Shown piece after piece: positions 2,082 to 54,575 of a stretch of DNA of 64,000 nucleotides (within the stretch, counting starts at the first letter, position 1; the number at the start of each line of letters is the position of its first letter). Under the pieces are notes generated by a model that saw nothing but the letters and a program-made list of their open reading frames with translations, had not been told where the DNA came from and searched no databases. The stretch covers positions 58,342,001 to 58,406,000 of the forward strand of contig OX638153.1 in NCBI GenBank assembly GCA_951804945.1, written 5' to 3'. The translations under genes and the position numbers were made by a program. This DNA is from Podarcis cretensis. Its lineage: Eukaryota.

Positions 2082-2907
2082 NNNNNNNNNNNNNNNNNNN
2101 NNNNNNNNNNNNNNNNNNNNNNNNNNNNNNNNNNNNNNNNNNNNNNNNNNNNNNNNNNNNNNNNNNNNNNNNNNNNNNNNNNNNNNNNNNNNNNNNNNNN
2201 NNNNNNNNNNNNNNNNNNNNNNNNNNNNNNNNNNNNNNNNNNNNNNNNNNNNNNNNNNNNNAGCCTTGCGCTTGGGGGCTTTGTGCAAAGGAGATGCTCA
2301 GCTGTNNNNNNNNNNNNNNNNNNNNNNNNNNNNNNNNNNNNNNNNNNNNNNNNNNNNNNNNNNNNNNNNNNNNNNNNNNNNNNNNNNNNNNNNNNNNNNN
2401 NNNNNNNNNNNNNNNNNNNNNNNNNNNNNNNNNNNNNNNNNNNNNNNNNNNNNNNNNNNNNNNNNNNNNNNNNNNNNNNNNNNNNNNNNNNNNNNNNNNN
2501 NNNNNNNNNNNNNNNNNNNNNNNNNNNNNNNNNNNNNNNNNNNNNNNNNNNNNNNNNNNNNNNNNNNNNNNNNNNNNNNNNNNNNNNNNNNNNNNNNNNN
2601 NNNNNNNNNNNNNACAGCCGACCAGCACACGACGACAATTAATCAGTTTCTGCATACTAGCTTGAACGCACAAGGCCCAGAAATGAACTCCTTTTNNNNN
2701 NNNNNNNNNNNNNNNNNNNNNNNNNNNNNNNNNNNNNNNNNNNNNNNNNNNNNNNNNNNNNNNNNNNNNNNNNNNNNNNNNNNNNNNNNNNNNNNNNNNN
2801 NNNNNNNNNNNNNNNNNNNNNNNNNNNNNNNNNNNNNNNNNNNNNNNNNNNNNNNNNNNNNNNNNNNNNNNNNNNNNNNNNNNNNNNNNNNNNNNNNNNN
2901 NNNNNNN
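2082..2907. other. Cluster of three N-runs (2082-2261, 2306-2613, 2696-2907) separated by 44-nt and 82-nt islands of unique sequence
   Basis: Directly visible; lengths 180, 308 and 212 nt. Confidence 0.99.
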
Positions 2908-3034
2908 TAAAAAGTGCTCTCTGCATAGACATGGTTCCTCTCTCACACACAGATAGACATTTGAAAAAGTGCTGCATCTGTATGGCTTTATAATTAGTGC
3001 TGGCAAGTACAGTCTTTTCCTCCTCCCACCCTCA

Positions 3035-3076
3035 GAAGAAGAAGAAGAAGAAGAAGAAGAAGAAGAAGAAGAAGAA
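3035..3076 (+). repeat. (GAA)14 microsatellite
   Basis: Perfect GAA run; produces the spurious poly-E in ORF 2969..3226. Confidence 0.95.
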
Positions 3077-5744
3077 AAGCATCGACGTAGTTGGCATGGT
3101 TATTGTGATATCTGTTGTGAGATGAGGGGCTGTCTTAAAAGGTGGTTCTGTTCAGCTGATAGTCCTTTGGAATGCTTTCATCCATCCATTGCATCTGATT
3201 CCAGCATTTGTTTGGATGGTTTATAGGCATGAAAGTTGCAATATCACAGTTAAATTGCTTCAGTGCGACTATGAGGACATTTTAGGTAGGGGTGGCCGCT
3301 GAGTTTCCTATATCATTGATATTAATAAATTGTGTATTGGGTTTAGGGGTAGTACCAAGCGTTGGGGTAGCTATGTTGCCATGCAAGTGAATTCTGTTAA
3401 TTACAAGTCTTCTCACACAAATGGAATTTGTCAAGGGTCTCTTTTAGACACTTAACTGTCTAAGATTAGAACATAGGATTGTCTCAAAAACATGCTCCTG
3501 TTAGCATTGTAAAAGAGAAGTGATCTTTACCTTGCTGCTGATAGTTCAAGTGTGCCTAACTGTTAAGATAAGAATTTCAAACCCCATTCACATGCTCAGC
3601 TTTCCCAGAATTTTCTGTACTAGAATCATGATTAAGTTCCATGGAAATGTTGTTTCACAAGAGAGGCCAAGGAAGCTCATACTTCTTTTCAGACTTTCCT
3701 TACAGATATGTTACATATCCAATGCTTGCTTATAGGAGGCATTTTTATTGTGGGATTTTGTGTGTGTCCTCCATTCTTCACTGCCCCACATAATCCCACT
3801 GTCTTTCTGATAAGCATTTGGTGATCATGGGATAATTCCAGACATTACCTTCTACGAGTACCATGTGGGTTGAGCTCAAGGGTTGAGCTGTCATTCTGGA
3901 AATGTTGGCTTGCTGAGTGCTAGATGTGGGGGAAGATTACCAGAGCACATACTATGAGGTAAACTGGTCTCAAAAAAGACCTGATTAATTGTGCCTTGTG
4001 CTTCATGCCTGAAATTGTACTGCTTGTGTGAGAGATTCCACATATCTTGCTTTTGTAAAAATATTTGTCAAATGAGAGCAGCCTGGTGAAAAGAAAGCAT
4101 TCAATCTAGTACGATCAAGAGCTGTCAGGGTTTTCACCCACATCTTTTGGGGTGGGCTGTGGGGAGGCTTCTGCTTTCTCCCTCCCATGTGATTTTACTG
4201 CAGTTTTGATTTCTTTGATGCTGTATTCTGTCTTCACAGTTTTAGAATTTCACTCAAAACATTCCTTTATTGGTCAATAGAGGGCACCAGCAATTCCTAA
4301 TTTTTGCTTCCAAGGGCCCAGACCCTAGGTCCCAAAGAGTGCTATGAAAACCTGATGAGCAGTTCAGTGAGGAGTGATGCCTGCAGATGTACTTATTTAT
4401 TTCACCTTTGAAATGCATAGCAGAATCTAAAGATTGCAAAGAATTTCCTGTGTTCTAAAGCTTGTTGTCCACATGGAAACCAGATTTCCAGTTTCCAAGC
4501 AATCGGTTCCATCTTTGCTGCTTCTTAAGGAGCATAATCTTTTCCAGTTTTCATCCTTTGCCAAGCGTAACTTAACTTGCTGACAAAAGTGCATGAGCAG
4601 CGCTCCTTTTTAATAGTCTGCTGTGTTGGTGCAGTAGAATGGGGCGACGGCAAGCTGTGAGCCACCATATGCACTTGGCAGTCATTGTCTGGTCTTTGTT
4701 CAGCCAACCTCTTAGTCTTGCCACCTATAAAGATAATGAATAAAACAAAGGTTTCAAATTAGCTGTTTAGTTTCAAGGAAGAAATTGGTAAACTTGAAGC
4801 ATGTTGGGACAGGCAACATAAAGGCTGTTGAATTCCATGGCATTTGGTAATGCATTTATCCTAGAAGGAAGGCGAAGGAGAGAGAAAAAAGGGAGCATGC
4901 GCTTCAAATATATGTTATTATTCTTGGTGCTGCCACTTGTTAGTACTGTATTCAGGTACCACCCTAAAAGTATAATGTATGTACTAGTTTTACTTTTTCT
5001 TCTTCTCTACTTGTGTTATTAATTCCATATTTCCCACCCATATTTTAACCTTTTCATAGACTTATGTCCTTCATCATTAGTCAGTCTGTTTCCAGTTTCA
5101 GATCGTTCCTTAAAACATACTCTATAAGTAGATTGACCAAGACAGTGGATGGTGCTTTGTCTACCCTTTCCTATCCAAACTCGATTCATGGTAACTCAGT
5201 CTTTACCATTTGGGTTAGCCAAAATACTTGTTGGGTAGAAATCCTGTCTGTTTTTATATCCTATATAACATTCTTTATTTATACCAAAGTCTTCAACTGT
5301 AAAAGAGCTTCTGGAACAGCTAGTATCAGTACGTAGCAAATATATCAGCTTGCTAAACTATATTGTAACAGTGGCATGGTATTTTGGAGTTCCTCTGTGT
5401 TCCTCTTAGTATTTAGGTTGCAACTCACAGGACTAATTTGGGTCTTTCCACAAAGTCACTGCTTCCAGGAGCTGTTTGCATGCTACATTTCTAAGTCCCA
5501 TAAAAATATTTTTTAAACATTGTGATCCTTAATTTTGTAACATACAGTTGCTAGCATATAAAGTCCGGAACAACTCTGGATTCAAGTACCTAAAAGGAAT
5601 GTCTCCCAAATAACTACCCAAACCATGTATTACGATCAGTGGGTGATGCCTTGCTTTCTGACCCATCTGTGGGCATGGCAGTTAGGACAACGACATGTGA
5701 CAAGTCATTCTTAGTGACTGTGCCCATTTATACAATCTCAGAAA

Positions 5745-5900
5745 AATAGAATTGTAGAGGTGGAAGTGATTCAAGGATCACTCTAGTCCAACCCCCTGCA
5801 GTGCAGGAATCACAACTAAAGAATGCCTGATAGATGGCTAGCTAACACCTTTTTAAAAACTTACAGTGAAGGAGAGCCCACCACCTTCCAAGGTGGTCTG
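5745..5900 (-). mobile_element. Degenerate CR1-type LINE 3' end, apparently interrupting an old L2-like fragment (about 5558-5990)
   Basis: atagaattgtagaggtggaag...ctagtccaaccccctgc resembles the reverse complement of a CR1 3' terminus. Recognised by eye; boundaries approximate. Confidence 0.5.
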
Positions 5901-6009
5901 CTTTTCCTAAACAACATTTGGTTGGCACCCATAGTTGATACATTTAAATAAAGGCTGAAGACATTTTTATTTGTCCAGGCTTTTTGATCTTAATGGAAAC
6001 ATTAAGGAT

Positions 6010-6645: not shown

Positions 6646-7152
6646 AGCAGACTCTTCTTAGGTTCTTAACGTTCATTATCAAAGTCATTGAAGTGGAAGT
6701 AATTCCATTGTATTAAACCCTAGTATTGTTGTGAGCCAGGGCATCCCACTTTAGTTATGTAGAAGAGTTCAGATCCAGCATTATGGAAGTGCTTGGACAC
6801 ATGCTGGGAATACAAAAAATCTGACTTTGTAATATTTTGAAAGTCTTGTTTAATTAGACGGGTATCTGTCATGAAGGAATATGTCTAGGGTCTGTTTATA
6901 GTGGCTTGCTCTTTTTCATGATACTGGATATGTCACAGGCTATGTCTATGGCAGACACTCATTCCAATTTATCCAATTGCGTGCCAGACAAAATAAAAAA
7001 TATTGACGCGTCTTAACAAAAAGAATTCAAAGGAAGTGAAAACTCATAGGTAATGTTGCTGAAAACATCAGATTTTTTGCTTTCTTAGATCAGTGTTGAA
7101 AGGAAAATATCTGAATTAATGATTTCCACCTTTTCCCCTCTCATCTGCATAG

Positions 7153-7230
7153 AATTCATCTGAGAGAGAAGACTGTAGCAATGACGAGCCCCCCAGGAAG
7201 ATCATTCCCGAGAAGAATGCACTCAGGCAG
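7153..7230 (+). CDS. BTRC: BTRC coding exon (human exon 3 equivalent), 78 nt, phase 0/0: [26 protein letters not shown]
   Basis: Pyrimidine tract plus catag acceptor ending at 7152; donor CAG|gtatgc at 7231; peptide closely matches the beta-TrCP1 N-terminal region. Confidence 0.95.
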
Positions 7231-9901
7231 GTATGCACTGAATTTAGGTGTGCAAAACCCACCCAGCCCCTTTACTTGAATGACCTAGAGTCCTTTGACA
7301 TCCCTTGCAACTTGGAAAGATACAAAACACATAAAGGAATTATTATTATTTTTCCCTCCCTCCCTCCCTCCCTCCCTCCCTCCCTCCCTCCCTCCCTCCC
7401 TCCCTCCCTCTCTCTTTCCTGAAGGAGTATATAAGTTTTCAAGTTACAACAATCATTCTTTGGAAGGCACCTTGGAGCTAATTCACATCTTTCCAGAGCA
7501 GTATGCAAGCTTACTTTCTTATGTATCGTACATTGCTCCAGTAATGTGCCTTAGAGAGCAGTCTTGTGGGTCAAGCAGGTGGTGTGATTCTTTGCTGAGC
7601 TAGTAATGGATGGATACTGAATTCCTTGTCATGTGCTGTACAAGAGATCCACGTATTCTGCAACCACCCTTGACCTCTTGGGGAATAGGAAGTTTGTATT
7701 ACTATCAGGCAAGTTTTCAGACCAATAGGCCTTGATTCTTATGTGTGTGGCCATAACTAAAGGAACAAACATTCAGTTATATTCCTAATCTAAACTTGAA
7801 CCAGAACAGAAGAAAGGTGAGCTAATAGGCTTTTCAGTTAATACAGAATTGGCTGCTAATTTAAAAAGTGATTATTGGAATTTAGACGCACTCCCTTACA
7901 CACAAGGGTTATTGATGGTTTATGCCATAGTCTTAACCTTCAGCTGCTGTTACCAGTTTGCAGACAGTAGCATTCTGGTTAGTGAGGCCTGGTAGCTGGC
8001 ATCAACAGGGTGCAGCTGAGATTTTCTTGGACAGTAAATAAAGAAGAGGTATTACTTGGCTGAATTCATTGGAAAAGCAAAGTCAGTCCAAATTGGCCTG
8101 CAGGCTATATCTTTGAGATCAGATATGCTTCCAGCCATGTATTTGTGAAATCAATGCTCCTCAGATATGCATTTTCTTATTTCTTTTTTTTTTTTTCAGG
8201 ATCCACACAACACTGTTGGCATCAACATTTCAACCAATATCACTATCCCACCCTCCCTTTAATCTAGATTTTCCGTTTCTGGGAAAGATCCAATATTAAG
8301 GGGTTTTGTGTGTGTGATATTGCATAAAGGATAAAGCTGTTGCCATTGATCCATTTGTGATATCTCAATATCCTGTTGGTAAATAAATTCCCTGTCTGGA
8401 TAGTCCCATAGGGACCTAGAAGGAATCGAGAAAGTAATGTGTTTCTTTTCTGAAAAACAGTTCTATTTTCTTCTTTGAATGCAAACGTATATTATCTTCT
8501 GCTTTGCTCAGGAGAGGGCAAATTTGTTGTGTGGGGGGGAGGGGGAAATAAGGCTGGACATCCAGCCACTCCTTAAACTTCCTATTGTCCTTTTATTTAG
8601 TAAAATGACCCTAAAATTCACAACAATCATTCTCACTCATGAAAGGACAGCATCAGTATGTGATCTGCAAGTACATGGGTTAGAGAACTTTTGCAAGCAT
8701 CATCTGCTTGATCTATGTACACATGGCAAGTATACAGCACTGCTTATTATGCATTGCAGAATGAAAACACATTTCCACATGGAGGTGTAACCTATGGTGG
8801 CCTTTATTTTGGCTCCATGCATTTAAAGTGTAAGACTTCTCCCAAATAATCTTGGGAACTGTAGCTGACCTCCTACAGAGCTACAGCTAAAGTTTCCAGG
8901 AATCTTTACGGGAAGTCATGTACTTTAGGGGAAGTCATGTACTTCAAATGTTTAGTGGGTACCTTTGACCACTTCCCATTACTCTTGCATAGAAGCAGTG
9001 GCGGAGCTTCATGTTCCGGCACCGGGGGGCGGAGAGCAGGCAGGGGCGGGGCTGGCGTGCATCCTGGGGGTGTGGCATGTCGCCTGCGGGGGCATGGTGC
9101 CCAGCACAGGCAGGGGGGCAGCTGCAATGGCACCCACCAGGATCACACTGCCGGGGACAGTGTGCTCCTCCCACACTTCGCTTCCTCCGCCAGTGCATAG
9201 ACGAAGCCAGCAGAGAGAAACATAACCTAGTTTAAAGCCATGTACCGTTTAGAGAAGTAAATATAATTAGGTCTTATTAGCATGTATTCTGTGAAGAAAG
9301 ACTTGGGGGGAAATTGAATGCTGGGGGGCCGTGGGTGGGGGAGGTTGTGTGGATGTGTGTTTGCAGCCTTGGAAAACCATGACAAGGGGACAAAGTTTTT
9401 GGCAACTATGTTTAAGCTAACAAACGAATTTTNNNNNNNNNNNNNNNNNNNNNNNNNNNNNNNNNNNNNNNNNNNNNNNNNNNNNNNNNNNNNNNNNNNN
9501 NNNNNNNNNNNNNNNNNNNNNNNNNNNNNNNNNNNNNNNNNNNNNNNNNNNNNNNNNNNNNNNNGAGTGCCCATTAAGTCCGGTGAATACAGATGGACCG
9601 GCAGGTCACACATGGGACTAATCTGATTCATTTTAAAAATAAATGTGTGAATTATTGAATCAGTCTCCTGGTTTGACTCCTGTTTTGTGCATGTGTGCAG
9701 TCTTTTTAAAACAGACCCTCAAATGCTTCAGTGCCTTTTTAACCTGTATGTTTCCATTTTAAATTCAACGTTCTTGCCAAAAACTGTAATTAGTTTTCAG
9801 TAGCCATCATTTAGTGTTGGATCCGAATAGTAGATTGATTAGGTCAGGCATTTGTTATTTTAAGGGCTTCGTCTCCATTTCTGAAGAGTTGGGGCTTAGT
9901 A

Positions 9902-9964
<63 letters not shown>

Positions 9965-15900: not shown

Positions 15901-18900
15901 TCTCTGTATGACTATATAATGCAGGCTGTCTGCTTTAAAAGTAGAAGCCCATGAATGCAATTAGCTGCTCTAAATACATGAAACACCTTACCTTTAGAAC
16001 AAATACAGTTCCATTATCCAAACCATTATTTCGTTTCTTCTTCACAGACCTATAATAGCTGTGCCAGGCTCTGCATCAACCAGGAAGCAGTTTGCTTAGG
16101 GAGCACTGCTATGAAGACTGAAAACTGTGTGGCCAAAGTAAGTAAAGCTGCAACTGTCATTCTTGTACCAGGTCAATAAGCTGCAAGTTCTCTCTTCATT
16201 GGAGAGGCAATTTAATACTGTGCTTTCTGAATGTATCCGTGTAAACCTAATTGAGTCCATAGGGTCTTATGGGAACTTATGTAGTTCTTTATCGGTAATG
16301 CACATTTTTTTGTTTTAATCCTAAGAATCCCTGCCTCATTAGTTCCCTGCCTGTAAAGGAAAAAGGTGAGATATAAATAAATATAATAATTATAATAATA
16401 ATCATTAGTTTTTGAAATTAGGGTGATAATATGGTGAAAATTTAGAAATGAGAGTTGAAAATCCTAGTGGTTTTTTTTTTTTTAATCTTATGATTTGTTG
16501 GGTCCTTTTAAACAAAAAATGTGCCAAATGTATCTTAGCAATAGCCATGTAAATATGAGAAATGCACGACTCAACTGTTGCACCTCCAACTGGTGGTTTA
16601 TTTATTTTTATGCTGTCTTTGTCCAAACAAGTTGTCCATGTTTGCTTCCAGCAGAGAGAAGCACCTGAGTGGGCATTCAGATTGTAGGGCTGCAATCCTG
16701 CCTCCTTTCTGAATTTAAGCCCCTGCAATTTTAGACAGGGAGCATATGATATTCTCATACCCCCCCTGCTGGCCACTGTCTCAAGTCACACAACTGGAGC
16801 CGAGGTGGGGGATTTGATTCACATACGGAGACATTATCAGTGGGTTAGAAGGGCGGTGTTGAAGACGCATCTGATTTTAAAACAAAGCACTTTCCAAGGG
16901 ATGGTGGATTGGGTATGTTCCCTTTTGCATTGCCACATCAAAAGAGACATTCTCAGGGAAATGTGCATCCTGTCTTTGGCTTCCCCTGCAACTAAATATA
17001 ACTCCCATAAAATAAGAACCGTGTCTGAGGGATTGTGAATGACTGGAAAACATTCCAGCCACGATACAGTGTATATAAAAAGGGCATGTTTAGCCTTGCT
17101 TAAGCTTCATGTTTCCATTGGAAGGAAGTTCAGGATAGCCCTGCAGGACAGATCAGTGCATGCAGCCATCTGTTAGCAAAACCAGCTGGCGCTTTTGCAG
17201 CATCTCTCCCCCTCCTCTTCTCACCCCCAACAAAATGGCTGGTAGAGAAATGATTGCCCTCTTCTCCCTCCTCATTCCTTGGGATTTCTTCCCGTAATGC
17301 CTTCCCCCCAGAATATGTATTCTTGCTCTAGATTGATGCCATATCCAAGAAACCTTTCTTTAACTTTACTCAAATATAAAAAATAATCCCTTTGGCAGAC
17401 AGTAATGCCATGCAAATTTTCTCCACCTTTCTGTAAAACTGCCTGTCGCATACAACGTTTCTCCTCAAGTGTGTCATTCTACAGAATCCAACATCCATTT
17501 ATGTATGGTGCCAATGTGTGAGCAGTCTGAGCAAATCGCTCAGTGTGCATAACTCTGTGGGAAGCTTGCTTAACCCCAGACAGAATGAAATTCTCCCTAA
17601 GGCCAGATAGATACCTCTGTTTGAATTTTGGCATTCAGTAGTATTCATAATGTTACTCTAGAGGACCAAGCTGTATGGCGTCACACCCTCTGTACAATTG
17701 TGCGTGTCTCTGTATGCTTTTGCATAGTTTGCAGCTCAGTGTAGTAGGAGCTACAGCGAGCTGGTCAGACAAAGGACTAAGCCATAGTTTAGTATTGTGG
17801 TAGCAAACCTCAGCAGGCCTTATGCTTGCTTTCTCCCTCTCCTCCTCAGGGGCAGCTACAAGGAAGAGTTTGGAAGGTTTTTGCTTCTGTTTTAGATTAA
17901 CCACAGCTCACCTTGTTGTCTAACCTCTGTGAAGCTGTGGTTAATTTTAACTTTGGCTTATTTATTATTATTTTTCTAGTTCTAATAATTTATACATAGT
18001 TTAATACTGCAGTTGTATTGTGTACAATAGGTGTTATGGAGGGATACAGCATAAAAATAGTTAAAATAAACCATAAGATTCGGGGGGGGGGAGCCTGCTG
18101 AAAGTCTTTACCAAGCATAAAATGTTTACCAAGCATCAGGGAGCAGGCTGCCTTATTTCAGCTTGGAGGGAGCTCCTCAGAATTGGACTCACAATACTGA
18201 ATGCACAACCAGTAGTTTGTGAAGCTGGCTTATTTCTGCTGATCAGCAGTTAATCTTAAACTGCTGATCAGTACCACAGTTTAGGGTTCAGATGATTCAT
18301 AAACTGTGGTTAACATAAAACAGTAACAAAAATTTCCAGTGTCCTCCTCGTGTCCACAGTAGAATGAGGGGAGAGAGTGTGCAAGCCATGACATACATAT
18401 CAAGCAAGTAAGTGCAAAGAGTGTAGCTTAGGGTGCAGCTAGGTGATGTAGTGGCATGGTGGGTCTTTTGCAGTAAGAGTCGGGAAATGTTGGTGGAGCC
18501 CAAGTCTCTGCAGTCCCTGTTCCATGTGCTGTATGAGTCCAGTGGAGCAATTAAAATGTGATGATACAGGGTCAGAGTTCAGGCTCATAATTTTGGGGGG
18601 GATGGAGGCCTTGTGGTTGTCTTTTTCCTAATACTCTGAAAAATACGGCGATGTCCAGTCCTTCTATGGCAGATGGGGGACATCAGCTCTGTAATGCAAA
18701 TGCATCTTCTTAGTTGAGAAGCGTTTTGTGTAGTGTTGTATCCAAACTGATGCCTTGATTCTTACTTGAAAGGTAAAGGGTAAAGGGACCCCTGACAATT
18801 TAGTCCAGTCGCGAATGACTCTGGGGTTGCGGTGCTCATCTCGCTTTACAGGCTGAGGGAGCCAGCGTTCGTCCGCTTCCACAGACAGTTTTTCCGGGTC

Positions 18901-21889
18901 ATGTGGCCAGCATGACTAAACCGCTTCTGGCAAAACCAGAGCAGCGCACGGAAATGCCGTTTACCTTCCCGCCGGAGCAGTACCTGTTTATCTACTTGCA
19001 CTGCATGCTTTCCAATTGCTAGGTTGGCAGGAGCAGGGACCGAGCAATGGGAGCTCACCCCATTGGCAGGGATCCGAACCTCCGATCAGCAAGCCCAAGC
19101 GGCACACTTATTTTTCTACAGATGGGTGTTTCTCCCTCCCCCCTTTTTCTGCAAGCATATAGCTGTCTTCTTGGAAACCCCCTTCAGGTTCTTGGTTTCA
19201 AATTCTCAGCCTGAAATTATAAAATAGCTTGGCAGAGTTTTCCCTGCATGCGCTTCCTCTCGCAGTAAACTTTTCTTCTACGCAGAACTCATTCGTTTGA
19301 CCAGAAGTTGTGTGAGGCTGGCAGGAAATCACAAGGGAGCTGCACTTACTAAAAGTAGTTTGTAGCACCTTTAATTAAAGGTGTGCCCTCAAAATGGTCG
19401 CCCACAAAAATTAGAACTCTGTTAATTTCCCCTGGGATCTTGACAAACATCTATGAGAAGAAAGCAGGAGACAAAAATTAGGTAATGAATCCTCGTCTCT
19501 GATAAAAGATATGGTCCTTCCAAGCACTGCTGCACCAGAGTGTTTATTCTTGGGCACATATTTTGCATATTTGTGTATTGCTGGGAGTGGTGTTCTTAAA
19601 ATGTGTGGGGAAGCATTGAACTCTCATAGGAAGTAGATATTTCTCATGATGGTGTGTATAGACGAGAACTGCATTACTAGTTCAAAACCTTTTGAAAGTG
19701 GAGTTGACATGGGATATGCATTGCCAAATATCCTGAAGACTAAACAAACCACTTTGCAGAGATTCAATATTGTAGTATCTGTGAATATATCACTAGTTTG
19801 TTTTATAGGTGAAATTCAGTGGGTATAAATTGAAACTTAAAGTTCTTGTGGGCCTCCCTTTGTACAGAGGAATCTGTTCCCTTTTGTAGCCCTCAACATC
19901 ACTCTGCCTTTCCAAAATGAATATTCAAAACTGGCCCAAAAGAATGCATTTTTAAAAAACAGTGTAGGGTATATTTAGATGTGGAGATTGTTACATTACT
20001 TTTTTCTGGTTGCAATGTTAGCACTTCTGCCCTCGTTTCTAATGTTACTGCATTAACTGTTGTGTTCTGAAACTGTGGCTTTCCATATACTGCCGTGTTA
20101 CACTAAATTCCATTCACACCAGTGAACATGGTGTGACACAACAGTGGACATCATCAAACATGCCGCCATTTTTTATGTGCATGCACTCTTCTGTTCCCCT
20201 GTGATTCACCCAGGAAGCTGGCAGGAAAGAACTGAGTGCCAGAATACTGCCCTAAATTTCATCACATAAGCAGCAGTGAAAACCACAGGGAAATTTCAGT
20301 ACAAAACTCCTGTGATTATCCAGGTTAATGGGGTTGCAAACAGATTTTTTTCTGGAAGCATTTTGCGTGCAAATGAGTGCTAAACTTCCACTAGATTTCC
20401 TGAATTGACATGTGAAAGATCACCTAAAACACTAAAATTATCAGGTAAGGAAAATGGAATAAAGTGCTGTCTGAAGGCAGCCATAGTAAATGCCTGACAC
20501 TTGTTGACATAGGAAGATTCTAAGAAGATTTAAAGAAGAATGAAGTAGCTATATAGCTGGTAATGATCTGCAAACCCAGTCTGCCAAATCTTTTAAAAGG
20601 GATATAAAATCTCAGATGGAGTTTAAGCTGGTATCTAACCATCAGCATGCATCTGTCAACTGCAGAAGCCGTTCAGCATGTTGGCAGTATTAAAATTATA
20701 GCTACCATCAGACATAAGGTAGACCAGGCATTAGAGCCAGTCTTTGGTTTCCTAGGATTATAGGAGATATGAATTTCAGGTTGTAGACTCCTCTGTCTCC
20801 TTTAAAGGATCCTTTCATTTAGTTTCAACAGACTTCTCTGTCTTACTAATTCAGCACCTGAGAACAGTATGGACTGGCTGTTGTGCCGAACTTTCTTTGA
20901 TAAGGCATCCTCACAACTTTTTACTGGAGCTCAAGGACAGGCAAGGTGTTGCTTTCACTGGCGCAGTGAAAGCCAGCCAGGCAAGCAGCTGTTCTGTTAT
21001 TTAGTAAGCTTGGCTCTTCAAGCTACGTATTGGTGACTGTGATCACTTTAGCTATCCGGTAGAATGGTACACAGCTAAAAATGCCTGCTAGTGAAGTGTC
21101 CCACTTTGGGGATGCAGAACACCTGGACAGATATGAAAAGTTCCAGAAAGGAGATGGGGTTCTCAGACAGGTAGACCTTTTCCTTCCCCTCATCATCCAA
21201 GACACGGCTGAGTTGAATGCTCTCTAGCATTGAATCTTAGGAAGTCACTGCTTTCCCACTTGCTCCATCATCCCTATATGAATTGGAAGGAGTTGCTTTG
21301 CCGCAGCAGTTTTTTCCTGGTGGGCTGCTTTCCTTCAGAGGAGTTGGATATGTCTTGTTCTGTCATTCATTCTGATGCATGTGTTGAATTAGTTTCCTAC
21401 TTCGCAGATCTTTTGAACACGTGCAGCATGACTCCACACCCCTTGCTATGAGTAGATAGTTGACTGGTGGTGGTGGGTGGGCAGAAGGTAGACTATATTA
21501 GAAGGTGAACCTGGCATCAAAAACACTAGCTTGAGAAACTCTGAGTTTAGTGCTCCTGAGATTTTCGGACCCTGAGAATGTTCAGGCCCTTCAATGTGCA
21601 CATAAGGTCTTGACCAGTCTTGTTGGGATCTCCCTGGAGGTGTCTTGCCAACCTTTTTCTTAAGTGAAGTACCATTTATCTATTGTGACTTTTCTGTGTT
21701 CACTACTGGGGGGGGGTGTTCCGCTTTTCTTTCTGTTGGACTCTGCTATGGTCTATATTGTGCCCAGGTTCACGTTTCCTTTATAATTATGGTTGAACAA
21801 ACCTAATACTGCCTTCCAGGAACTGATGCATTTCCATCGTAATGCTGTACTTGGCTCAAAATTGTTCTTTAACTTGTGGAATTAGAATC

Positions 21890-21954
<65 letters not shown>

Positions 21955-24900
21955 ATCTTTGGGAGATAATTTCTCAAATGGAAATAAAAAGTGTTATAAC
22001 TAATGTAAAACTGAGATGAAGTTTACTTAATACCCACAAGTATTCTGCCTCCATGAAGCATAATTAAAATCATCCGAAGGGTTAGGCTTTTCAGTTTCTT
22101 TACAGTGGCACGTTGGTCATAATCTAAGTATGAGGCTATTTTGCCTTAATTTGGAATATTTTACATTTTCACAGTCTCCCCCTTCCCCCATCCCTAGTCA
22201 GAGTTATTTGCAAAGGGATTGAAGAAAGAATGTGCACGTCTCCCCTCCCGTTCCCCTTCCCACATTCTCCAGATTTTGATAGAAGATTTGTTTTATTTAT
22301 TTCCAAAATTATATCCGCAGGAAACAAGCCGTTTAAATTCAGATTATGCTGAATCAAAATGGTGCTGGTATGAGAAGCAACGTGCTGTTTTATGAGCACG
22401 GAGTCCCTTTTCTCATAACTGATTGATAGTAAATATTTTCCTGAAGAGTTATTGCCAGCCATGAACAGTGCAACTGTTTCACTGGGTTTTTTTTCTCCTG
22501 TAGTACTTGCTGTACCAGCCATTGTCTGTAATTAAGATCTACAATTCACAATGCAGACGTTTGCACTTCCTCTGGGTCTGAGCTATTTATAAGGTATTTC
22601 AGCTGTTCAGAGTTTCTTTTGAGTGCTAAACTACATGTAAACAGGCATTTTTCTCTCTCCAGTATGCACACATTGTATATCAGTTGCCTTTATTTCAGCC
22701 TCCTCCTTTCTTGGAAGCTACTTTATATGTTGGGTTCATCATGAAATAAATAAGGGTAGAAATAGTTCTCTCCACCCCCAACCTCCACTCCAGTGATTTT
22801 TACAAACCATTGCACCCTCCCCCAGCCTGTTTTCAACCAAGGGCCTCTTAAATGCTAGGGATACCCAGCCACTTTTGCCATTAATGGTTCTACTGAATTA
22901 ACAGATGAGTAGCAAAAGAGTGGCATGCTAAAGCTTTCAACCTTATAGAACTGGAGGTAGAAATAAAAAAATCTCATGATTCAGTCTTCCTTCAACCCAC
23001 TTCTGTCTCCCTTAGGAAAATATGCAGTTATCTGTGAGTCACTTGACACAGACAAGATTTTCCTTGGTGATCATAGGGAGAAACTATGTGCAACGATCAT
23101 GTGTCTATTTAACGACTTATGTCTGAAAGCAAGCATAATTTAAAAGGGCGATATTTATGCATGTTTCATTGGTAATGTACCATTTGTGGTCTTCTGAACC
23201 GAACACCTTGCAGATGTAGATTTAAACCACAGCTCAGCAGTGGAATTCATGGACAAGTTATATAATAATAATTATTATTTATTATTTATACCCCGCCCAT
23301 CTGGCTGGGTTTCCCCAGCCACTCTGCGCAGCTTCCAACCGAATATTAAAAACACAATACAGCATTAAACATTAAAAACTTCCCTAAACAGGGCTGCCTT
23401 CAGATGTCTTTTAAAAGTAAGATAGTTGTTTATTTCCTTGACATCTGATGGGAGGGCGTTCCACAGGGCGAGCACCACTACTGAGAAGGCCCTCTGCCTG
23501 GTTCCTTGTAACTTCACTTCTTGCAGTGAGGGAACCACCAGAAGGCCCTTGGCGCTGGACCTCAGTGTCTTGGCTGAACGATGGGGGTGGAGACGTTAGT
23601 TGCCTTAGTTTTCCTATCTGTAAAGTGGGGAGAACAATGGCGTATTTCATGAAATGGTGGCAAAAATCCACTTCCTGGGCGTAAGTCGTCAAGTTGGAAC
23701 ATCTGAGTGACCTTTTTGGATAACAGCCTAGTGTGCTGCAGGAACATCACCAGACCTAGAAATCTGAGGGAAGAATTTTGGAAGGGAAACTCTGTTCTAG
23801 CCTTATCCGCTCTTTGGCTAAGTTGAGAGCAAGTTTACATGGGTCTGGATCAGCTCAGAAAGGCTCTTGTGTCTTTGTCCCTAGGAGGAGTAATAATGAG
23901 AAGCAAGTTCCTCATCAGGCATGTACTGCAGCATTGCCCGCTGATGCATGCCGGATCACCCGCATACAGGGATCACGTGACCACTCCAAAAGTCAAACGA
24001 TCAATTCGCCTCGTTTTGGCTCTGTAGTTAATGCACAAACAGNNNNNNNNNNNNNNNNNNNNNNNNNNNNNNNNNNNNNNNNNNNNNNNNNNNNNNNNNN
24101 NNNNNNNNNNNNNNNNNNNNNNNNNNNNNNNNNNNNNNNNNNNNNNNNNNNNNNNNNNNNNNNNNNNNNNNNNNNNNNNNNNNNNNNNNNNNNNNNNNNN
24201 NNNNNNNNNNNNNNNNNNNNNNNNNNNNNNNNNNNNNNNNNNNNNNNNNNNNNNNNNNNNNNNNNNNNNNNNNNNNNNNNNNNNNNNNNNNNNNNNNNNN
24301 NNNNNNNNNNNNNNNNNNNNNNNNNNNNNNNNNNNNNNNNNNNNNNNNNNNNNNNNNNNNNNNNNNNNNNNNNNNNNNNNNNNNNNNNNNNNNNNNNNGC
24401 ACGTTTCTCCGACTGTGGCATGGCGCACCATTTTCCATGCAGGAATTCGGAGGAGTAAAGCTTGGCAAAGCCTCACTAAAGAGGAGTCCATTAGGAGAGG
24501 AGGGGCCAAGCAGTACTGAGAACCATACTGCTCTGATTTACCCCGTATGGTAGAAAAACTCAAAACGGCTTGTAAAAAAGAAATTAGTCAAAAGCAACAA
24601 AGAAAAGCCCAGGACAGATTTTTTTTTTCTTCTTATTTCTTAAAATTAAAAATAATGGTTAACACAAGAGATTGCTATGTTCTACTAAAAATGAGGTGGT
24701 GCCCTAAAGGAGTCATAACTGCCCAAGAGAGATTTTCTCTCTCTCTCTCTGGAATCCACCAATTTGTGTTTTTGTTGCTTGTTGCTGTGCTTAGATTTGG
24801 AACCGTTAACTTTGAATTTCCCTGGTTGGATTTAACTTTTTTAGTGAAATATTGTGCATCCTCACTGTTCTGTTGGAGCCTTTACAAAGAGCTAATTTAG

Positions 24901-27900
24901 ATATTTGTATAGAATTCATTTTCATGTCCTGTCTGCCACAGAACAAGACTGTTACTGCAACTGATGTGCCTGGCATATAAGGATTCTTGTTTTGTTTCTT
25001 TACAAATGCTTCATTTAGTCATATGGTTGTGGAAGCTTTGAATCATGGTACACAACACTAGTTTCTGTCAGTTATATCAGCACTCAGCACTGCTGTGGAA
25101 CTATAGTCTCCTCTAACCTCTGAGAAGGTCTCTTTCCATGTATTGTTGAGGCACCAGGTAGCAGCACAAAGCCATCTCTGCAAAAGGTCCTCGTTGAACT
25201 TGCTGCCTTATCGATCAAGTAAAGCTTTAGAGTCTTTTGACCTTCAGAGAATCTGCTGGGTACTCACAACAAGATGTCTGACCTTGGGAGCAGCTCTTGA
25301 GAATGTAGAACGTTATTGATGTGTCTTGTGTACCTTGTTGTGCTAGGATACTGCTTAATATGATATTTTGAGTTGCAGAAGTGCAGGGGTTTTTGTGTTG
25401 GCTGTTTTATTGATTGCCATATTTCAATTTTAAAGCACATTTGTGTTAAATCTGGTCAGAAGGTTACACAGTTGTCTGCCCTTGGTATTGTGTGCAAATT
25501 CACATTCAGATTTGCAGGATGGCCTTTCCTAATGCCCGAACTGCAACATTTTCATTGTTCCTAATCTGCTGTACACATCAAGATGCCAATTAACTGTGTC
25601 AGGGCAGCAAGCTTTCTGCTGCTCCTGGAATTAGTCTAATAAATACTGCCTCTCAGCTGAAGCCTCTTTCTTTCCGTTTGAAAAGAAAATGCTATCTTAC
25701 TTTGCTGGAGCTGCACATCAATAAGCTGCAGTGTCCTAATAAAGCCACTCAGTGTCTAGGTTTNNNNNNNNNNNNNNNNNNNNNNNNNNNNNNNNNNNNN
25801 NNNNNNNNNNNNNNNNNNNNNNNNNNNNNNNNNNNNNNNNNNNNNNNNNNNNNNNNNNNNNNNNNNNNNNNNNNNNNNNNNNNNNNNNNNNNNNNNNNNN
25901 NNNNNNNNNNNNNNNNNNNNNNNNNNNGTCACATTAACTTCAACCGCATGGAAAAGATCAGGCGGAGCAAACGGGGATCCTGCCCAATCGGAACACTGAA
26001 ATTAATGAGAAGAGCATTGTTCTGTGATCAACCTTTTAATTAGCAAGACGGGAGACAGAGGGAGTGATGACGCCGGCAGCACAGCTGCGCAGTGACAGGC
26101 ATGCCTCCTGCAAAGGGGAAGGGAAAAGCACACGCTTTAAATTATCCTGCTCTCTGCTGCTTGCCCACCAGCAGCATAGCTTTGTTTTGAACCCTTTTCT
26201 CAGCTGTGCAAACAATGCCTGCGTTTATTAGAAAACTCTAAGCCACTCACTCCCCAGCATTCGTGTCTGCGACCACTCCTGTCGTGGGGAAAATGTGATT
26301 TTGAAAGTTTTAGTATATTTCACATTTGAACCAGAGAGGGGTCATTATTCGGTAGCAGCCTGGCCCATGTGCCCCTCTTGCTTTTCGGCAGCTGTCTCAT
26401 AATAAGTCTTTCCCGTTCAAAGGACTGACACACCGTTTGTTTGTGTCAAATGGGGTTGGCAATGAATTGTGGCACTATCCTGCTGTCTGAGTTGCTGTGC
26501 CTTTCCTCACTATGGCTGTGCTAAAGGGTGTCATAGAAATGTAGGCTGTGGGTGAAAAGTTCAGCCTTGCAAAGTGTGCAGAAGATGCGTTGAGGATTGA
26601 AGTTAAATAACTTCCTGTCCAGGTCCTCTTTTTGAGTGAGGTTTGAAGGAAGCAGAGAAGGCAAAGGACAATACTGAGAGGATGGCGTTGCGGAAGAGGA
26701 GAAAAGCACAGAAACGTTTAATACTCTTTTAAGAAATCAAACAACCAGCATTTTAACCAACATCTATAATTAAGCATTAAAGTGGTCCTCTTGTTGTCTC
26801 TTGTGTGCGCATGCACACACACAGAGCATTTATCCTCCCCCCACACACATAGTGTTGCTTTTCTGTATCTGCTAAACTTGCACGTTCTCTTTATGTGTTG
26901 GCCCAACAGCAGTACTTGGTGATTTTTCAAGCAACTGTGCTAATTGTGGACAATGAACTGAAACTTTATGCAACACAGTAAATGTGTGGTTGCCTCCTCT
27001 GGTTTGCACGCAACTTCTGTTTGATTTGTTGAGCATTGTGCGCTACCTGGAAGTACTGAGATTAAAGCAAAACAGGACCCTTCCTTCACAAAGTCCTTAA
27101 ATGCCAACCAGTTGTGTACTCAATTGGCCTAGTCTTAACTGCTCAAATGAAGCATTTGTCCTTGATGCAGGAGACCATTACTAAGTACTGTCTAAGAAAC
27201 TGACTGTCTTCAAAAGGTTAAAGGTATTAAGAATGCAAAGGTATTCCTAAGGTTGGAGACTTACAACAAACAAAGACTAGATTATTTTTCAAATGTTCCT
27301 TTATGAAGAGTTCTCCATAAAGGAAGTTTTCTAATACAGTATTTTTAAAGTTATTTTTGGTAAAACTAAAATAACAACCTATTTATCACTGTATTCTTTA
27401 GAAAGCAGTTTACCTGTGGGCTGTGACTAAATGAGAATTTTCGGTTCTCAGATAACTTTATTTTCAGGAAGCTATAGGCAAGGAGAATAAATGTTTGTTT
27501 GAACGCATTCACTCTTGACACATTGGTGCTGAAATTCTGTGGTGAATGTTATGAAACATGATTGGTGATACTGTTGATCCTGGGACTACTTATAGAAAAA
27601 TTCATGAGGAAACCACTCTTTAACATAAATAGAACTTGAAGCATACATTCTTTCCCCGCTCATATTTGGACTTTTTACTTCTCTTTTATCATTTGGCCCA
27701 GTTTGGTGCTTGAAAGCATTGCTCTTTATGGCATCCCATGTTTGGGACTGTGAAGAGTTACTGTTCTTTTCAAATGTTACTGTTCTTTTCAAATGCAAGT
27801 AATTTATTTTTGTTAGTGGGTATGTTGAGGCTGACGGATGCATTATGCAGCTTTCTGATCACCCATGGTTATTTCCATGCCAATTCTGTTTGGCTGATCC

Positions 27901-34236: not shown

Positions 34237-34270
<34 letters not shown>

Positions 34271-37200
34271 TCTAGACAGGTTATTTTTGAACTTTTATAC
34301 CTGTAGATACTTTAGGTAGACAACTGCCTATTTAACTGTACTGAAGGTATAATGGAAGTATTTGTTTGCTTTGTCTCAGGCTAGAGAGACAAATTATATT
34401 ATAATTACAATTATAATAATTTTATTAATAATACTCTGAGGCATAGAATTTCTGTTGTTCAAAAGCTTGAATAACTTTTTGATATCACCTACTCTTTTCT
34501 TTACCTTTCCCCCTATGAATCTGCATAGCAGTAGCTCTTTTGCAATACTATCTTGGAAATCCTCGGATAATTCTTTTTTATTCTGAACTATCAATAGCCT
34601 GTTTAAGTTACCTTTTGTGTGGCATTGATGCTTTTCCAAGCCTGGCCTTTCTAAAGTACCCTATCTTTGGAACGACAAGGCAACAAGATTTGATCATTAG
34701 GCTTCTGGCTTTTGTTATATCACCACCAACAGTACCCTGCATTTACTTACCTGAACTTCAACAGAACTAGTGGGAATAGCCTCTTCATGTGGCAACAAAA
34801 AATAAAATAAAAGCAAATTAAAAATAAAAATAGAAGTGTAACGTTTCACAAGCAGCTGTAAATTGTAATTTTTTTGGTATATATAGTTCTCTGTTAAAGA
34901 AATTGGTAGAGGGAACACTAAAACTTTTCTAGAATAACAATTTTGTGGGTATTAAAAATTTTAATCAATGAACTTCCTTTTTAACATTTAATTTCAGTTC
35001 ACATTAAAATTGTAACTGCTCTTTAACTTCGAAAAGGCTGAACCGTTTGGAAGTTAATCAAATGCACAAAACTTCTGTTTTCTGCCTTTATAACTGACAG
35101 AGTAAAGCCAGAAATGATGATTAGAAAGTAGTTTGATCAAGGAGGGAAATTATGATATATCAAAGTAATGGTTTTAATGTATTTTTCAGAAGGCTAGATG
35201 ATCTAGTGGGTAACCAACTAGCTGGTTGTGTCCTTGCAAAACATTGTCAAGATGTCCTTGATCGAGGATGGACAACAAACTTCGCATGCATAATTGTTAT
35301 AACTGGTGTTTTAATTTTAGCATCTTTTGTATCTGGCAACTTATGTACATGTAAAAGCTGCTTCAGACTCAAATGTTTTTGTTACCATCTTTTGGACAGG
35401 TAATATATTTGTACTAGGAGGCATGAGTGAAGATTGTAGTTTTTCCCCCTAATACCAGTTCTTTTCTTTGTCCTACAAACCCAGCTGACACTCTTAAGGG
35501 TGCACAGCACTGTTCCAGGGTGTCTTAGTTGTGTTTGGGCTTGCTCTTCTGGTTTGTAGTAGATTAAAAGGGGATATGTCCTTCACTGCTGAGAAAGGTG
35601 CAAAATCTGAAAGCTGACTGACATGATCAGTTTTGTCTCCTTGCCCTTCTCCTCAAAGACCCACCTGTGAAGCATCCCCATGGAGGATGTCCTATGGCTG
35701 CTACTTTGCAGAAGCGAGGTTCTGCTTCTACAGTAATAGGAATTATCCTGAGAGAGGAAGAGATGGTGTCCATGGGGGCAGGGAATCTGGAGGCAGGATT
35801 GCATAGAGGTAATTTGACCATGTGAACCAACTTTGTAAACATCTAGGGCCTTACACCTCTAAGTCAAGTGTTCAGTTCTTTGTTGCCTCATTTCAGGCAG
35901 GTCACCTGAGTGTGTTCAAAAAGCCTTTCACTAAAAGCTTTATCTGTTTTTAAAGCATCATAGTTTCCAGATTTTAATCTCGTCATTTAAACTACCTAGG
36001 CTTCTCATGCCACGACCTCATGGTTCTCTTTTATCACCAGAAGCTGAACCCATTTTAGATCAACCTCTGTAGACAAACCTGAAGTTTAAAAGTTGGGAAA
36101 ACCTCTCTCTCTTTCTTTCCCAACCTCACGGAAATTTTATTTCAGTGATTTCACCAGCATTTAAAATCCAAATGGAAGACCTATATCAAAGGGAAGTTAT
36201 ACAATAAGAGTCACCAGATTCCAGACAATTAAACTTTATTAGTCTGTCTGAAGCATAAAGTAGTACCTCTTAAAAGAATAGTTTTTCATCTCCTCTCCCT
36301 GTTGCTGTTTACTGTTTAGCAGTGTGGGAGAGGCACAACTCTTTTCTTTCAGGAATGCATTTTCCTTAGTCACTGGAGAAATTCTCTAGTATTCTTGGAC
36401 TACATGTAGCCCACTGCAGGGTGCAACAAAAATTAGTCCCTAAATGTGGTGACTAAAAAGTCACCTGTTCCTCTTAAGCCAGTGATTAAGTACATGTGGC
36501 TCCAGAAACATTTTAAGTAGCTCATAGGTGTTTGCTAAAACTGCAAGAATTCTGACTTATTTCATAAAAAATAAGTGTTTCTTATCCTCCTGTATTTCCA
36601 GATAGAACTTTGATTCTGTTGTTGTAAAGGTTTAGAAGAAACAGGGCAAATAAACTTAAAATGCACTATTTAACTCTCAGCTTTCTTTACATACATAATG
36701 GAAGCAGGTGTTCTGATTTCACATATTCCTATCTACAGATTTAAGGTACGGTGGTACCTTGGGTTACATATGCTTCAGGTTACAGACTCCGCTAACCCAG
36801 AAATAGTACCTCAGGTTAAGAACTTTGCTTCAGGATGAGAACAGAAATCGTGCTCGGGCAACGCAGGAGCAGCAGGAGGCCCCATTAGCTAAAGTGGTGT
36901 TTCAGGTTAAGAACAGTTTCAGGTTAAAAATGGACCTCCAGAACGAATTAAGTACTTAACCTGAGGTACCACTGTATTGGAGAATAAATGGTGCTGAACC
37001 AAGGTGCTCATCTTTTCCTTGTGTGCTGAACTCATTGTAGTCACTTACTTTATACTGGAGTAAGATTCAAAGTTTGCCATCACAAAAAAAATTACATATA
37101 TGTAAAGTGAGTTTATTTTGAGAAATAATCTCCTGGCAATGTATTGGAGTTTTGCAAAAGCTGAAACTGTTGACAAAGAGGCTGAAGTAGTGGTGGGCAT

Positions 37201-40200: not shown

Positions 40201-43200
40201 CCCCACCATTGCTATCCCAAATAGCATGAACCATCCAATCTGCTGCCATTCAGTACTGATCTTACTGTGAATACACATGAAAGGCCCAGTGAAACCTGTT
40301 GCTATGGTTGTGCCACTGCCTCCTGTTCCCTTGCTGCAGTGTTCAAATGCCCCCTCTAGGATGATCAGCCCCCTTTGTTTGTATGCCAGCTAACCTACTC
40401 AGTGCAGCTGATACTTTGGTTGCCAAACCACAAAGCAGTGTTTAGGTCTGACTGCATTTCAGTACCGTATTGTCTTTCTTCCCCCATCCCCAAGTCTCTC
40501 TGCCCTTGCCTGTTCTCCTCCTTCTGCCTTTGCTTAGGTAATGTCCCCAATGCTTTTAACTTCACAGCAAAGTTAGAACGCTGCGCAGGAAGTTAACTGC
40601 CTCGAGTCTTTTAAATTTAAGTAACACACACCAAATAATAAGCTGTTGGTTGCGTTTTTTTGTTTTGTTTCTGTTTTGTTGGTGTGGGTATTTTTTTTCC
40701 CTGCCTGCAAAGAANNNNNNNNNNNNNNNNNNNNNNNNNNNNNNNNNNNNNNNNNNNNNNNNNNNNNNNNNNNNNNNNNNNNNNNNNNNNNNNNNNNNNN
40801 NNNNNNNNNNNNNNNNNNNNNNNNNNNNNNNNNNNNNNNNNNNNNNNNNNNNNNNNNNNNNNNNNNNNNNNNNNNNNNNNNNNNNNNNNNNNNNNNNNNN
40901 NNNNNNNNNNNNNNNNNNNNNNNNNNNNNNNNNNNNNNNNNNNNNNNNNNNNNNNNNNTGTTTGTCAGTTTCTCAGTGGAAATTAGAAGCAGTTTTTTTG
41001 CAATTCCCTAAGCTGCTGCTCTGTCATATTTTACATAAGCACTGGGAAAACGTCTTGTAATTAGTGCNNNNNNNNNNNNNNNNNNNNNNNNNNNNNNNNN
41101 NNNNNNNNNNNNNNNNNNNNNNNNNNNNNNNNNNNNNNNNNNNNNNNNNNNNNNNNNNNNNNNNNNNNNNNNNNNNNNNNNNNNNNNNNNNNNNNNNNNN
41201 NNNNNNNNNNNNNNNNNNNNNNNNNNNNNNNNNNNNNNNNNNNNNNNNNNNNNNNNNNNNNNNNNNNNNNNNNNNNNNNNCCCCAATTCTCTTCACTTGG
41301 GCCCAACCAAAAATTCTGTTAAGGTGGCTCTGTAAAGATCAGCATGTTTACCAGCAAAGAACAGAGGCAGCTATAGATGAGGAGTGCAGGGGAGGGTTGG
41401 ATGAATCTGTTCGACCCTGATGCTGACATTGAGGGACGAATACTGCCAAATCTTAATTGGGTCTCAAAGCTAGCACTGGGTGCTGCAGTCGGCTTCCCTG
41501 TGGTGGTGATGATGGTAATAACACTTAGCATTTGCATAGATAGCTGTCCTGCCCTGACATTGTGTAAGAGCCTTACAACACCTGAGTCCCAGGCCTTCTG
41601 CTGATCTTCCATGTGTGCTGGCAGCAAAAGTCAACTACATCCATGCAAACAAGCTTGACCTTGCCTAGTTGAACGCTATGGCTACAGAGCAGGGTGGAAA
41701 ACGGAAGACAAAAGATGAGCGCAAGCAAATAGTATGGAATGGGAAGGTGGGTGAAGGGGCCATTGTTCAGTGCTACAGCATATGCTGTGCATATGGCAGG
41801 TCCTAAGCTCAATTCTTGGCATCTCCATTTGGAAGAATCAGGGAAAAGATGATGGGAAAGACCTCCATCTGAGACATGGGAGATCCATTGCCAGTCAGAG
41901 TAGACTGTACTGGACTACTTGGATATATGGTTCAACCTGCTATAAGGCAGCATCATATATTATGTAGCAAATCCGTACTCTCCCAGGCATGCAAAGCTGA
42001 ACTGTGTGATGAACGTTTGTTTTTAGGACACACACTAATACATGTTACTATTTGGTTGCCTTGCTGAGAGAGACCTAAAAGGTGTTCTTCGTCTGCACGA
42101 TAAGCTGTGCTAGTCAACAATGTCAGCAACTGAATCTTACCAAATCATAGTGCTCCGTGAGAGAGACCAAATACAAGGGAAGTGTAGACTAGAGTCCCTC
42201 AGTGTACTCAGATGTGACTAGTTAAATGGACTGCATATAAAGAAGTACATATAAAAAAGTTCCTTCTCCATAGCCTCCCCCGGTGGCCAGAAGTAAATCA
42301 TTCTCCAGTACAAAAAAACCTCTCAGGGGAAACCTATAGACAGTTGTGCAATATGGGAGCAGGTTATTTCCCAGGCTCCGAAGCTCTATGCTGTTGGCAA
42401 ATGTATACATGTCCTTGTGTTTAACAACCTTTTTATATTGCATAGAGCCCTAGCAAGCTTCTTTGAAATATGTTAATATTTCATTATCTGTGCCCACTTG
42501 AAAGCTCCAACAGAATAGTGATTACACAGAATTTCCTTGCTGTGAAAAAGCTTTCTCTCTCTTTCCCTCGCCCTATCATGTTGTATCACAGGTTGGATTC
42601 TTATAGATGGCACTATTGACTCTGGGGTTAGAGTTCAAGAGTTCATGACCCAATGTGCCTTGCTTCCCTTGTTGCTATAATGGTCATCCCTGACCATTAG
42701 CCATGCTGGCTGGGACTGATGGGAGTTGTACGCCAACAACATCTAGATGGCACCAAGTTGACTGACCACAGTTTCTTCCTATTAATTTTGTGCTTCCCCA
42801 GTGAGGATAGTGTGGGTTTGTTGTTATTATTATATATGGTGTGGATGTAGTCAGGGGTGAACGAAGGTGTCGTGACACCCGGGGTGGGGCATTGCTACGT
42901 AGGGCGCATGTGCGGCATTGCTACATGCACTGTACATAGCAATTTGCCACCGGCGGTACTCCAGCGCCATACGGACGGTGCCGGGATCCCTCCGTTACCG
43001 CTACAGCCATGAATGGAGGATCCTCTACATGCGGCTGTAGCGGTGACGGAGGGTTCCCACAGCTATGTACAGTGCATGTGCGGCTCCCTTGGCCTGTAAA
43101 GCGAGATGAGCACCACAACCCCAGAGTCATCTGTGACTGGACTTAACTGTCAAGGGTCCTTTACCTTTACCTTTTTACAGCTGTTGGCAACAATTGGGTA

Positions 43201-54514: not shown

Positions 54515-54575
<61 letters not shown>

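What the first reader, a model, noticed from the sequence alone, without database searches (positions are those of the whole stretch)
2082..41280. Eight N-runs look like masked ultraconserved elements rather than assembly gaps
Seen: eight N-runs (180, 308, 212, 132, 356, 164, 244 and 213 nt; 1809 nt total), all in the large 5' introns. Their lengths are irregular, they have no repeat or microsatellite edges, and several are split by tiny unique islands (44, 82, 109 nt) that are too small to be contigs. Established, from memory and needing verification: human BTRC introns host several ultraconserved elements (about uc.305-uc.309), in the LBX1-BTRC-FBXW4-FGF8 (SHFM3) regulatory landscape. I recall a close pair upstream of exon 3, a pair about 2 kb apart after exon 4, and one further into that intron. 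That arrangement matches 2082-2907, 24043/25764 and 40715-41280. Inference: near-identity to human or another vertebrate caused them to be hard-masked, for example by a contamination screen. The most constrained DNA of the locus would then be missing, and the N-runs would act as a map of deeply conserved enhancers.
Basis: partly seen in the sequence, partly recalled or inferred. Interest (0 to 1): 0.75.

Follow-up and report, generated by a model that had tools for sequence, protein, structure and literature searches.

The report
Masking artefact over known BTRC elements
The eight blanked stretches in the introns of this reptile-like BTRC gene are most likely computer masking rather than a trait of the genome, and they likely cover five long-known ultraconserved elements, so nothing new is shown.

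Summary
The eight N-runs are present as described and all lie in BTRC introns 2-4; no coding exon is hidden. Their lengths are not irregular: 7 of 8 equal 16k+4 (P about 5e-7 for that modulus), which points to a program. 800 kb of the same contig on both sides, through the LBX1-like and FGF8 genes, holds 0 N, where the window's rate predicts about 100 runs. The task text says stretches were replaced by N before reading. So the runs most likely belong to this window copy, not to the deposited assembly; a contamination screen and a genome-wide N map are not supported. The bases under N were not seen. The elements are published; uc.309 lies in enhancer hs326. Verdict: artefact over known elements.

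The parts
2082..2907 (.). N cluster 1: three runs (180, 308, 212 nt) with islands of 44 and 82 nt, BTRC intron 2; likely over the orthologues of uc.305 and uc.306
   Evidence: span 826 nt against 828 bp for human uc.305 start to uc.306 end; identity inferred from position
7153..7230 (+). BTRC coding exon 3 (78 nt, AG/GT borders), unmasked
   Evidence: tblastn; borders
9433..9564 (.). N-run 4 (132 nt), intron 3; no counterpart among uc.305-309
   Evidence: left out by the best fits
16048..16137 (+). BTRC coding exon 4 (90 nt), unmasked
24043..24398 (.). N-run 5 (356 nt), intron 4; likely over the uc.307 orthologue (232 bp in human)
   Evidence: inferred from position
25764..25927 (.). N-run 6 (164 nt), intron 4; likely over the uc.308 orthologue (277 bp in human)
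   Evidence: start-to-start distance from run 5 is 1721 nt against 1829 bp for uc.307 to uc.308; inferred from position
40715..41280 (.). N cluster of runs 7 and 8 (244, 213 nt; 109-nt island), intron 4; likely over the uc.309 orthologue, the core of human enhancer hs326
   Evidence: inferred from position
48994..49225 (+). BTRC coding exon 5 (beta-TrCP D domain), unmasked
   Evidence: Pfam PF12125 E 5e-26; 99-100% identical to amniote BTRC proteins, about 80% to FBXW11
53247..62948 (+). BTRC coding exons 6-11 (53247-53433, 56903-56999, 58687-58824, 59354-59472, 62222-62471, 62830-62948): F-box and WD40 repeats; no N in this part
   Evidence: WD40 match

Best explanation
The N-runs are most likely software masking laid on this window copy, and they likely cover the reptile orthologues of the known human ultraconserved elements uc.305-309 in BTRC introns. 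Shown: positions, intronic location, the 16k+4 length pattern, no N in 800 kb of neighbouring genome. Inferred: that the mask fell on DNA nearly identical to a distant vertebrate, which explains why synonymous-diverged coding exons stay visible while non-coding blocks vanish; that clusters 1, 5, 6 and 7-8 correspond to uc.305+306, uc.307, uc.308 and uc.309. If so, the hidden DNA would work as developmental enhancers hosted in the introns of a bystander gene inside the Lbx1/Btrc regulatory domain, with LBX1 the likeliest target (inference from the mouse domain map); some are also transcribed in mammals.
For: Masking: 7 of 8 lengths are 4 mod 16, P about 4.5e-7 for that modulus (moduli 2-40 were tried, so about 2e-5 after correction by hand); 0 N-runs in 80 of 80 neighbouring 10-kb stretches against about 100 expected at the window's rate; the genome is 1.51 Gb in 51 contigs, the window's contig 103 Mb; the task text states that stretches were replaced by N. 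UCE position: hg38 coordinates of uc.305-309 from Table S2 rows of PMC6941714; linear fit of 4 human anchors to 4 of 5 clusters, scale 0.694, relative residual 0.008, matched or beaten by 213 of 20,000 random layouts; 826 against 828 span; between-cluster ratios 0.67, 0.70-0.72 and 0.94 for the close pair; the reversed orientation fits 8 times worse (0.045 against 0.005). Literature: uc.306 and uc.308 BTRC-intronic (PMC3626580 supplement rows); uc.309 antisense in a Btrc intron (PMC8749388 passage); BTRC holds one of 52 dense human UCE clusters (PMC13513235 passages); UCEs map to birds and reptiles at about 89%, the strictest sets at 94.5-95.5% identity (PMC11276968 passage); hs326 is a positive enhancer whose interval contains uc.309 (PMC3637097 section 12; build conversion by hand); Lbx1 and Btrc share one TAD (PMC10020157 section 6).
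Against: The bases under N were not seen, so no identity to any UCE was measured. The genome's own copy of this place was not compared, so the absence of N there is inferred from its neighbours. Run lengths do not match UCE lengths one to one (1809 nt masked against 1306 bp for the five UCEs; run 5 is longer than uc.307, run 6 shorter than uc.308). Run 4 has no partner among the five. The geometric test is post hoc, has a free scale and offset, and gives only p about 0.01. Human exon coordinates were not found in any call (0 papers), so the intron-by-intron match in human rests on recall. The task text warns that an N says nothing about the sequence beneath it. The eighth length (213) breaks the pattern by one base. 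No enhancer activity or target gene was tested in this species.
Confidence: 0.8

Rival explanations
1. The deposited assembly itself was hard-masked at vertebrate-conserved stretches, for example by a contamination screen, so N-runs map conserved enhancers genome-wide.
For: Positions fit uc.305-309; the length pattern shows a program at work; the assembly's own copy of this place was not seen.
Against: 0 N in 800 kb on both sides. That stretch covers BTRC introns 1-2, two homeobox genes, FGF8, and the place where uc.302 (232 kb upstream of uc.305 in human) should fall at any scale up to about 1.7; its orthologue was placed by synteny and not checked by sequence. The task text names masking by the scan.
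Confidence: 0.04
2. The runs are software masking, but over something other than uc.305-309 (other conserved non-coding DNA, or stretches masked for an unrelated reason), and the positional fit is chance.
For: p only about 0.01, post hoc; lengths do not match one to one; run 4 is unexplained; the task text says N tells nothing of the sequence.
Against: Three separate features agree: 826 against 828 span, the pair about 1.7-1.8 kb apart, and a constant 0.67-0.72 scale between clusters in the right orientation.
Confidence: 0.14
3. The runs are true assembly gaps (low coverage or unresolved repeats).
For: Assembly gaps also read N and cannot be told apart inside the window (task text).
Against: Islands of 44-109 nt; no repeat within 126 nt of any of 16 edges; shared length residue; no gap in 800 kb around; 51 contigs for 1.51 Gb.
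Confidence: 0.02

Closest known systems
Human/mouse/rat ultraconserved elements uc.305-uc.309 (Bejerano set) in BTRC
   Same: Host gene, intronic setting, order, orientation and relative spacing.
   Different: No sequence identity could be measured; eight runs against five elements; lengths differ; distances between clusters are about 0.7 of human.
VISTA enhancer hs326 (chr10:103,266,649-103,267,972 as given in PMC3637097)
   Same: Contains uc.309 (conversion by hand), which by position corresponds to the cluster at 40715-41280.
   Different: hs326 is 1.3 kb and the cluster 566 nt; no activity data for this species.
dedUCE cluster 39 (BTRC, 11 UCEs of at least 100 bp within 25 kb; PMC13513235 Table 2)
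   Same: Shows that BTRC introns hold more conserved blocks than the five numbered ones, which could account for run 4 and the longer runs.
   Different: Coordinates lie in a supplement that could not be read, so no match was tested.
Lbx1/Fgf8 two-domain regulatory locus (SHFM3; PMC10020157)
   Same: Gene order homeobox, homeobox, BTRC... FGF8 is kept on this contig.
   Different: The known Fgf8 limb-ridge enhancers lie in Fbxw4 introns or beside Fgf8, not in Btrc; Btrc introns belong to the Lbx1 domain.

Membership tests
Ultraconserved elements uc.305-309 (orthologues) | Near-identical sequence to the human element over about 200 bp or more | not tested
   The bases read N in this window; no identity was measured.
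Ultraconserved elements uc.305-309 (orthologues) | Located inside the BTRC orthologue, non-coding | tested here: met
   Gene is BTRC and not FBXW11; runs lie between mapped exons; no further exon of 39 N-terminal parts tested maps near a run.
Ultraconserved elements uc.305-309 (orthologues) | Colinear order and spacing with the human elements | tested here: met
   213 of 20,000 random layouts as good; 826 against 828; reversed orientation 8 times worse.
Ultraconserved elements uc.305-309 (orthologues) | Same intron as in human | tested here: inconclusive
   Human exon coordinates were not found; the match to introns 2 and 4 is recalled.
Ultraconserved elements uc.305-309 (orthologues) | Length equal to the human element | tested here: inconclusive
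   305/224/232/277/268 bp against runs of 180+308+212, 356, 164, 244+213; mask edges need not be element edges.
Developmental enhancer | Drives tissue-specific expression in a reporter or on deletion | not testable with these tools
   Known only for human hs326 as reported in PMC3637097.
Assembly-wide hard mask of conserved DNA | N-runs also at other conserved elements of the same assembly | tested here: not met
   0 N in 80 of 80 10-kb stretches from the TLX1/LBX1-like genes to beyond FGF8.
Assembly gap | Flanked by repeats or contig-sized pieces; lengths round or free | tested here: not met
   Edges 126-1994 nt from repeats; islands of 44-109 nt; 7 of 8 lengths 4 mod 16.

The most novel reading that the evidence does not exclude
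Run 4 (9433-9564, intron 3) and the extra masked length around uc.305-306 and uc.309 mark amniote-frozen elements that no UCE or enhancer catalogue lists, that is unrecorded candidate enhancers of the LBX1 domain kept from reptiles to mammals.
Probability: 0.08. Interest if true: 0.2.

Novelty: not a real feature. Interest (0 to 1): 0.06.

Why it matters
Biologically little: the N-runs are not a trait of the genome, and what likely lies beneath has been catalogued since the first UCE list and partly tested as an enhancer (hs326). For the scan it matters as quality control. Masked stretches in vertebrate windows can look like findings, carry a recognisable length pattern, and may fall on the most conserved non-coding DNA, which first-stage readers then cannot judge.

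Tried and rejected
Hidden coding exon under an N-run: rejected. Every exon from 3 to 11 is visible, exons 1-2 and 12-14 lie outside the window, and the parts before exon 5 of 39 of the 51 best hits gave only five weak scattered matches elsewhere, none at a run. Known structured RNA in the visible window: 0 Rfam matches at gathering score; N stretches cannot match. Repeat-edged gaps: rejected. Concentration in 5' introns as evidence: rejected, chance 0.26. UCE coordinates were sought without success in the supplements of PMC8701292, PMC11065071, PMC8961524 and by name in PMC6941714, then found there by coordinate prefix; rows for uc.303 and uc.304 did not appear between the rows for 302 and 305. 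The dedUCE supplement was too large to read and may hold a partner for run 4. Human exon coordinates recalled from memory were searched in full text: 0 papers; passages of two SHFM3 papers gave none. A PAX search in the own genome put the nearest PAX genes 13 Mb and 44 Mb away and was not followed up. LBX1 was not within the first 200 kb upstream and was reached in the next 200 kb. Earlier findings of the scan: one unrelated note, none near.

Full report
Observation. None of the 16 edges lies closer than 126 nt to a tandem repeat or to a repeat found by BLAST against 800 kb of neighbouring DNA. The lengths are not irregular: 180, 308, 212, 132, 356, 164 and 244 all equal 16k+4, and 213 is one more. 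The chance that 7 of 8 share a residue mod 16 is about 4.5e-7; moduli 2-40 were tried. Starts and ends share no residue.

The gene. The exon at 48994-49225 encodes the beta-TrCP D domain (Pfam PF12125). It is 99-100% identical to amniote BTRC proteins and about 80% to FBXW11, and a second copy at 75% DNA identity lies on contig C3 (likely FBXW11). tblastn with 17 vertebrate proteins maps exons 3-11 on the + strand, with AG/GT borders; exons 1-2 and 12-14 lie in the neighbouring DNA. Exon numbers follow this chain and agree with recalled human numbering. Runs 1-3 fall in intron 2, run 4 in intron 3 and runs 5-8 in intron 4. No constitutive exon is missing, and no alternative N-terminal segment of 39 proteins maps beside a run. 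The species was not determined; exon 5 is 100% identical to two lizard entries and one bird entry.

Are the N's in the assembly? The genome has 1.51 Gb in 51 contigs; the window lies on a 103-Mb contig. I took 400 kb on each side of the window. 0 of 80 10-kb stretches hold an N, where the window's rate would give about 100 runs. This DNA includes BTRC introns 1-2, two homeobox genes upstream (named TLX1 and LBX1 from recall; one search confirms only a homeodomain) and FGF8 downstream (E 2e-30 to FGF8b). Human uc.302 lies 232 kb upstream of uc.305, so its orthologue should fall inside this N-free DNA; that was placed by synteny and not checked by sequence. An assembly masked at conserved elements would show N there. 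The assembly's own copy of this place was not compared, so this last step is inference.

What likely lies beneath. The bases were not seen; only position can speak. Table S2 of PMC6941714 (supplement rows) gives hg38 chr10 coordinates: uc.305 101,451,677-982 (305 bp), uc.306 101,452,281-505 (224), uc.307 101,484,225-457 (232), uc.308 101,486,054-331 (277) and uc.309 101,507,273-541 (268). uc.306 and uc.308 are listed as BTRC-intronic in PMC3626580 (supplement rows), and uc.309 as antisense in a Btrc intron in PMC8749388 (passage). Cluster 1 spans 826 nt against 828 bp from uc.305 start to uc.306 end. Runs 5 and 6 start 1721 nt apart against 1829 bp for uc.307-308. The long distances shrink by 0.67 and 0.70-0.72. 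A linear fit of the four human anchors to four of the five clusters was matched or beaten by 213 of 20,000 random layouts, and the reversed orientation fits 8 times worse. Against this: the test is post hoc, lengths do not match one to one (1809 against 1306), run 4 has no partner, and human exon coordinates were not found in any call.

How it would work. From the literature: UCEs map to birds and reptiles at about 89% identity, the strictest sets at 94.5-95.5% (PMC11276968, passages). A mask aimed at near-identity with another vertebrate would therefore hit them and spare exons that have drifted at synonymous sites; this is inference, and the reason for the mask is not stated. BTRC carries one of 52 dense human UCE clusters (PMC13513235, passages; supplement unreadable). 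The enhancer hs326, called positive and limb-related in PMC3637097 (section 12; the only paper with the term), contains uc.309 once the builds are converted with the offset given by uc.306 and uc.308 (by hand; the passage names no build). In mouse limb buds Lbx1 and Btrc share one chromatin domain, apart from Fbxw4/Fgf8, whose limb-ridge enhancers lie in Fbxw4 introns or beside Fgf8 (PMC10020157, section 6 and passages). So the hidden elements would be enhancers hosted by a bystander gene, with LBX1 the likeliest target; nothing of this was tested for this species. Transcripts from uc.306, uc.308 and uc.309 are reported in mammalian cells (passages of PMC10086085 and PMC9139194). Passages of PMC11031364 and PMC5003447 gave only background on the locus.

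Right: masking and not gaps, and probably the UCE assignment. Wrong or unsupported: irregular lengths, masking in the deposited assembly, missing constrained DNA, and N-runs as a genome-wide enhancer map.

Novelty and score. The reported feature is an artefact; what it likely covers is long known. The boldest reading left open is that run 4 and the extra masked length mark uncatalogued conserved elements (probability 0.08), but the 11-element dedUCE cluster in BTRC probably includes them. I make no claim that anything is absent from print. The scan's index showed nothing near this place and one unrelated note by words. Interest 0.06.

Noticed in passing
window 60289-60833: Tandem array of a 154-bp unit, 3.5 copies, 94% alike, in BTRC intron 9.
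   Followed up: no
window 1-64000 against L001-L080: The window is poor in interspersed repeats: 6.9% covered against 8.5-27.5% per 50 kb in the neighbouring 800 kb (the two measures are close but not identical), as expected for a conserved regulatory block.
   Followed up: partly
window 1-182, 18764-19106, 43073-43185, 36735-36988, 46753-47003: Copies of high-copy interspersed repeats (30-57 overlapping hits in 800 kb); families not identified.
   Followed up: no
window 57494-58014: 128-aa open frame that looks like the end of a LINE ORF2 (recalled), followed by a TTA repeat; no Pfam match, one similar stretch in the neighbouring DNA.
   Followed up: partly
L017:3122-3199: An alternative BTRC exon between exons 1 and 2, seen in bird protein models (P0028, P0031), is present at 85% identity in this genome.
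   Followed up: no
L023:9607 to L024:74: An open frame resembling a GLUT/SLC2A sugar-transporter exon (recalled) lies about 24 kb after the last BTRC coding exon; two sturgeon gene models fuse BTRC with a PF07690 transporter (P0001, P0044), which hints at an old neighbourhood.
   Followed up: no
L052:1011-1313 (+), L059:8658-9167 (-), L064:7971-8348 (-), L066:1947-2276 (-): Homeobox exons (TLX1-like and LBX1-like by recall) upstream and FGF8 exons downstream: the gene order of the SHFM3 locus is kept.
   Followed up: partly
window 9433-9564: The one N-run with no partner among uc.305-309; it could correspond to a shorter catalogued element.
   Followed up: partly
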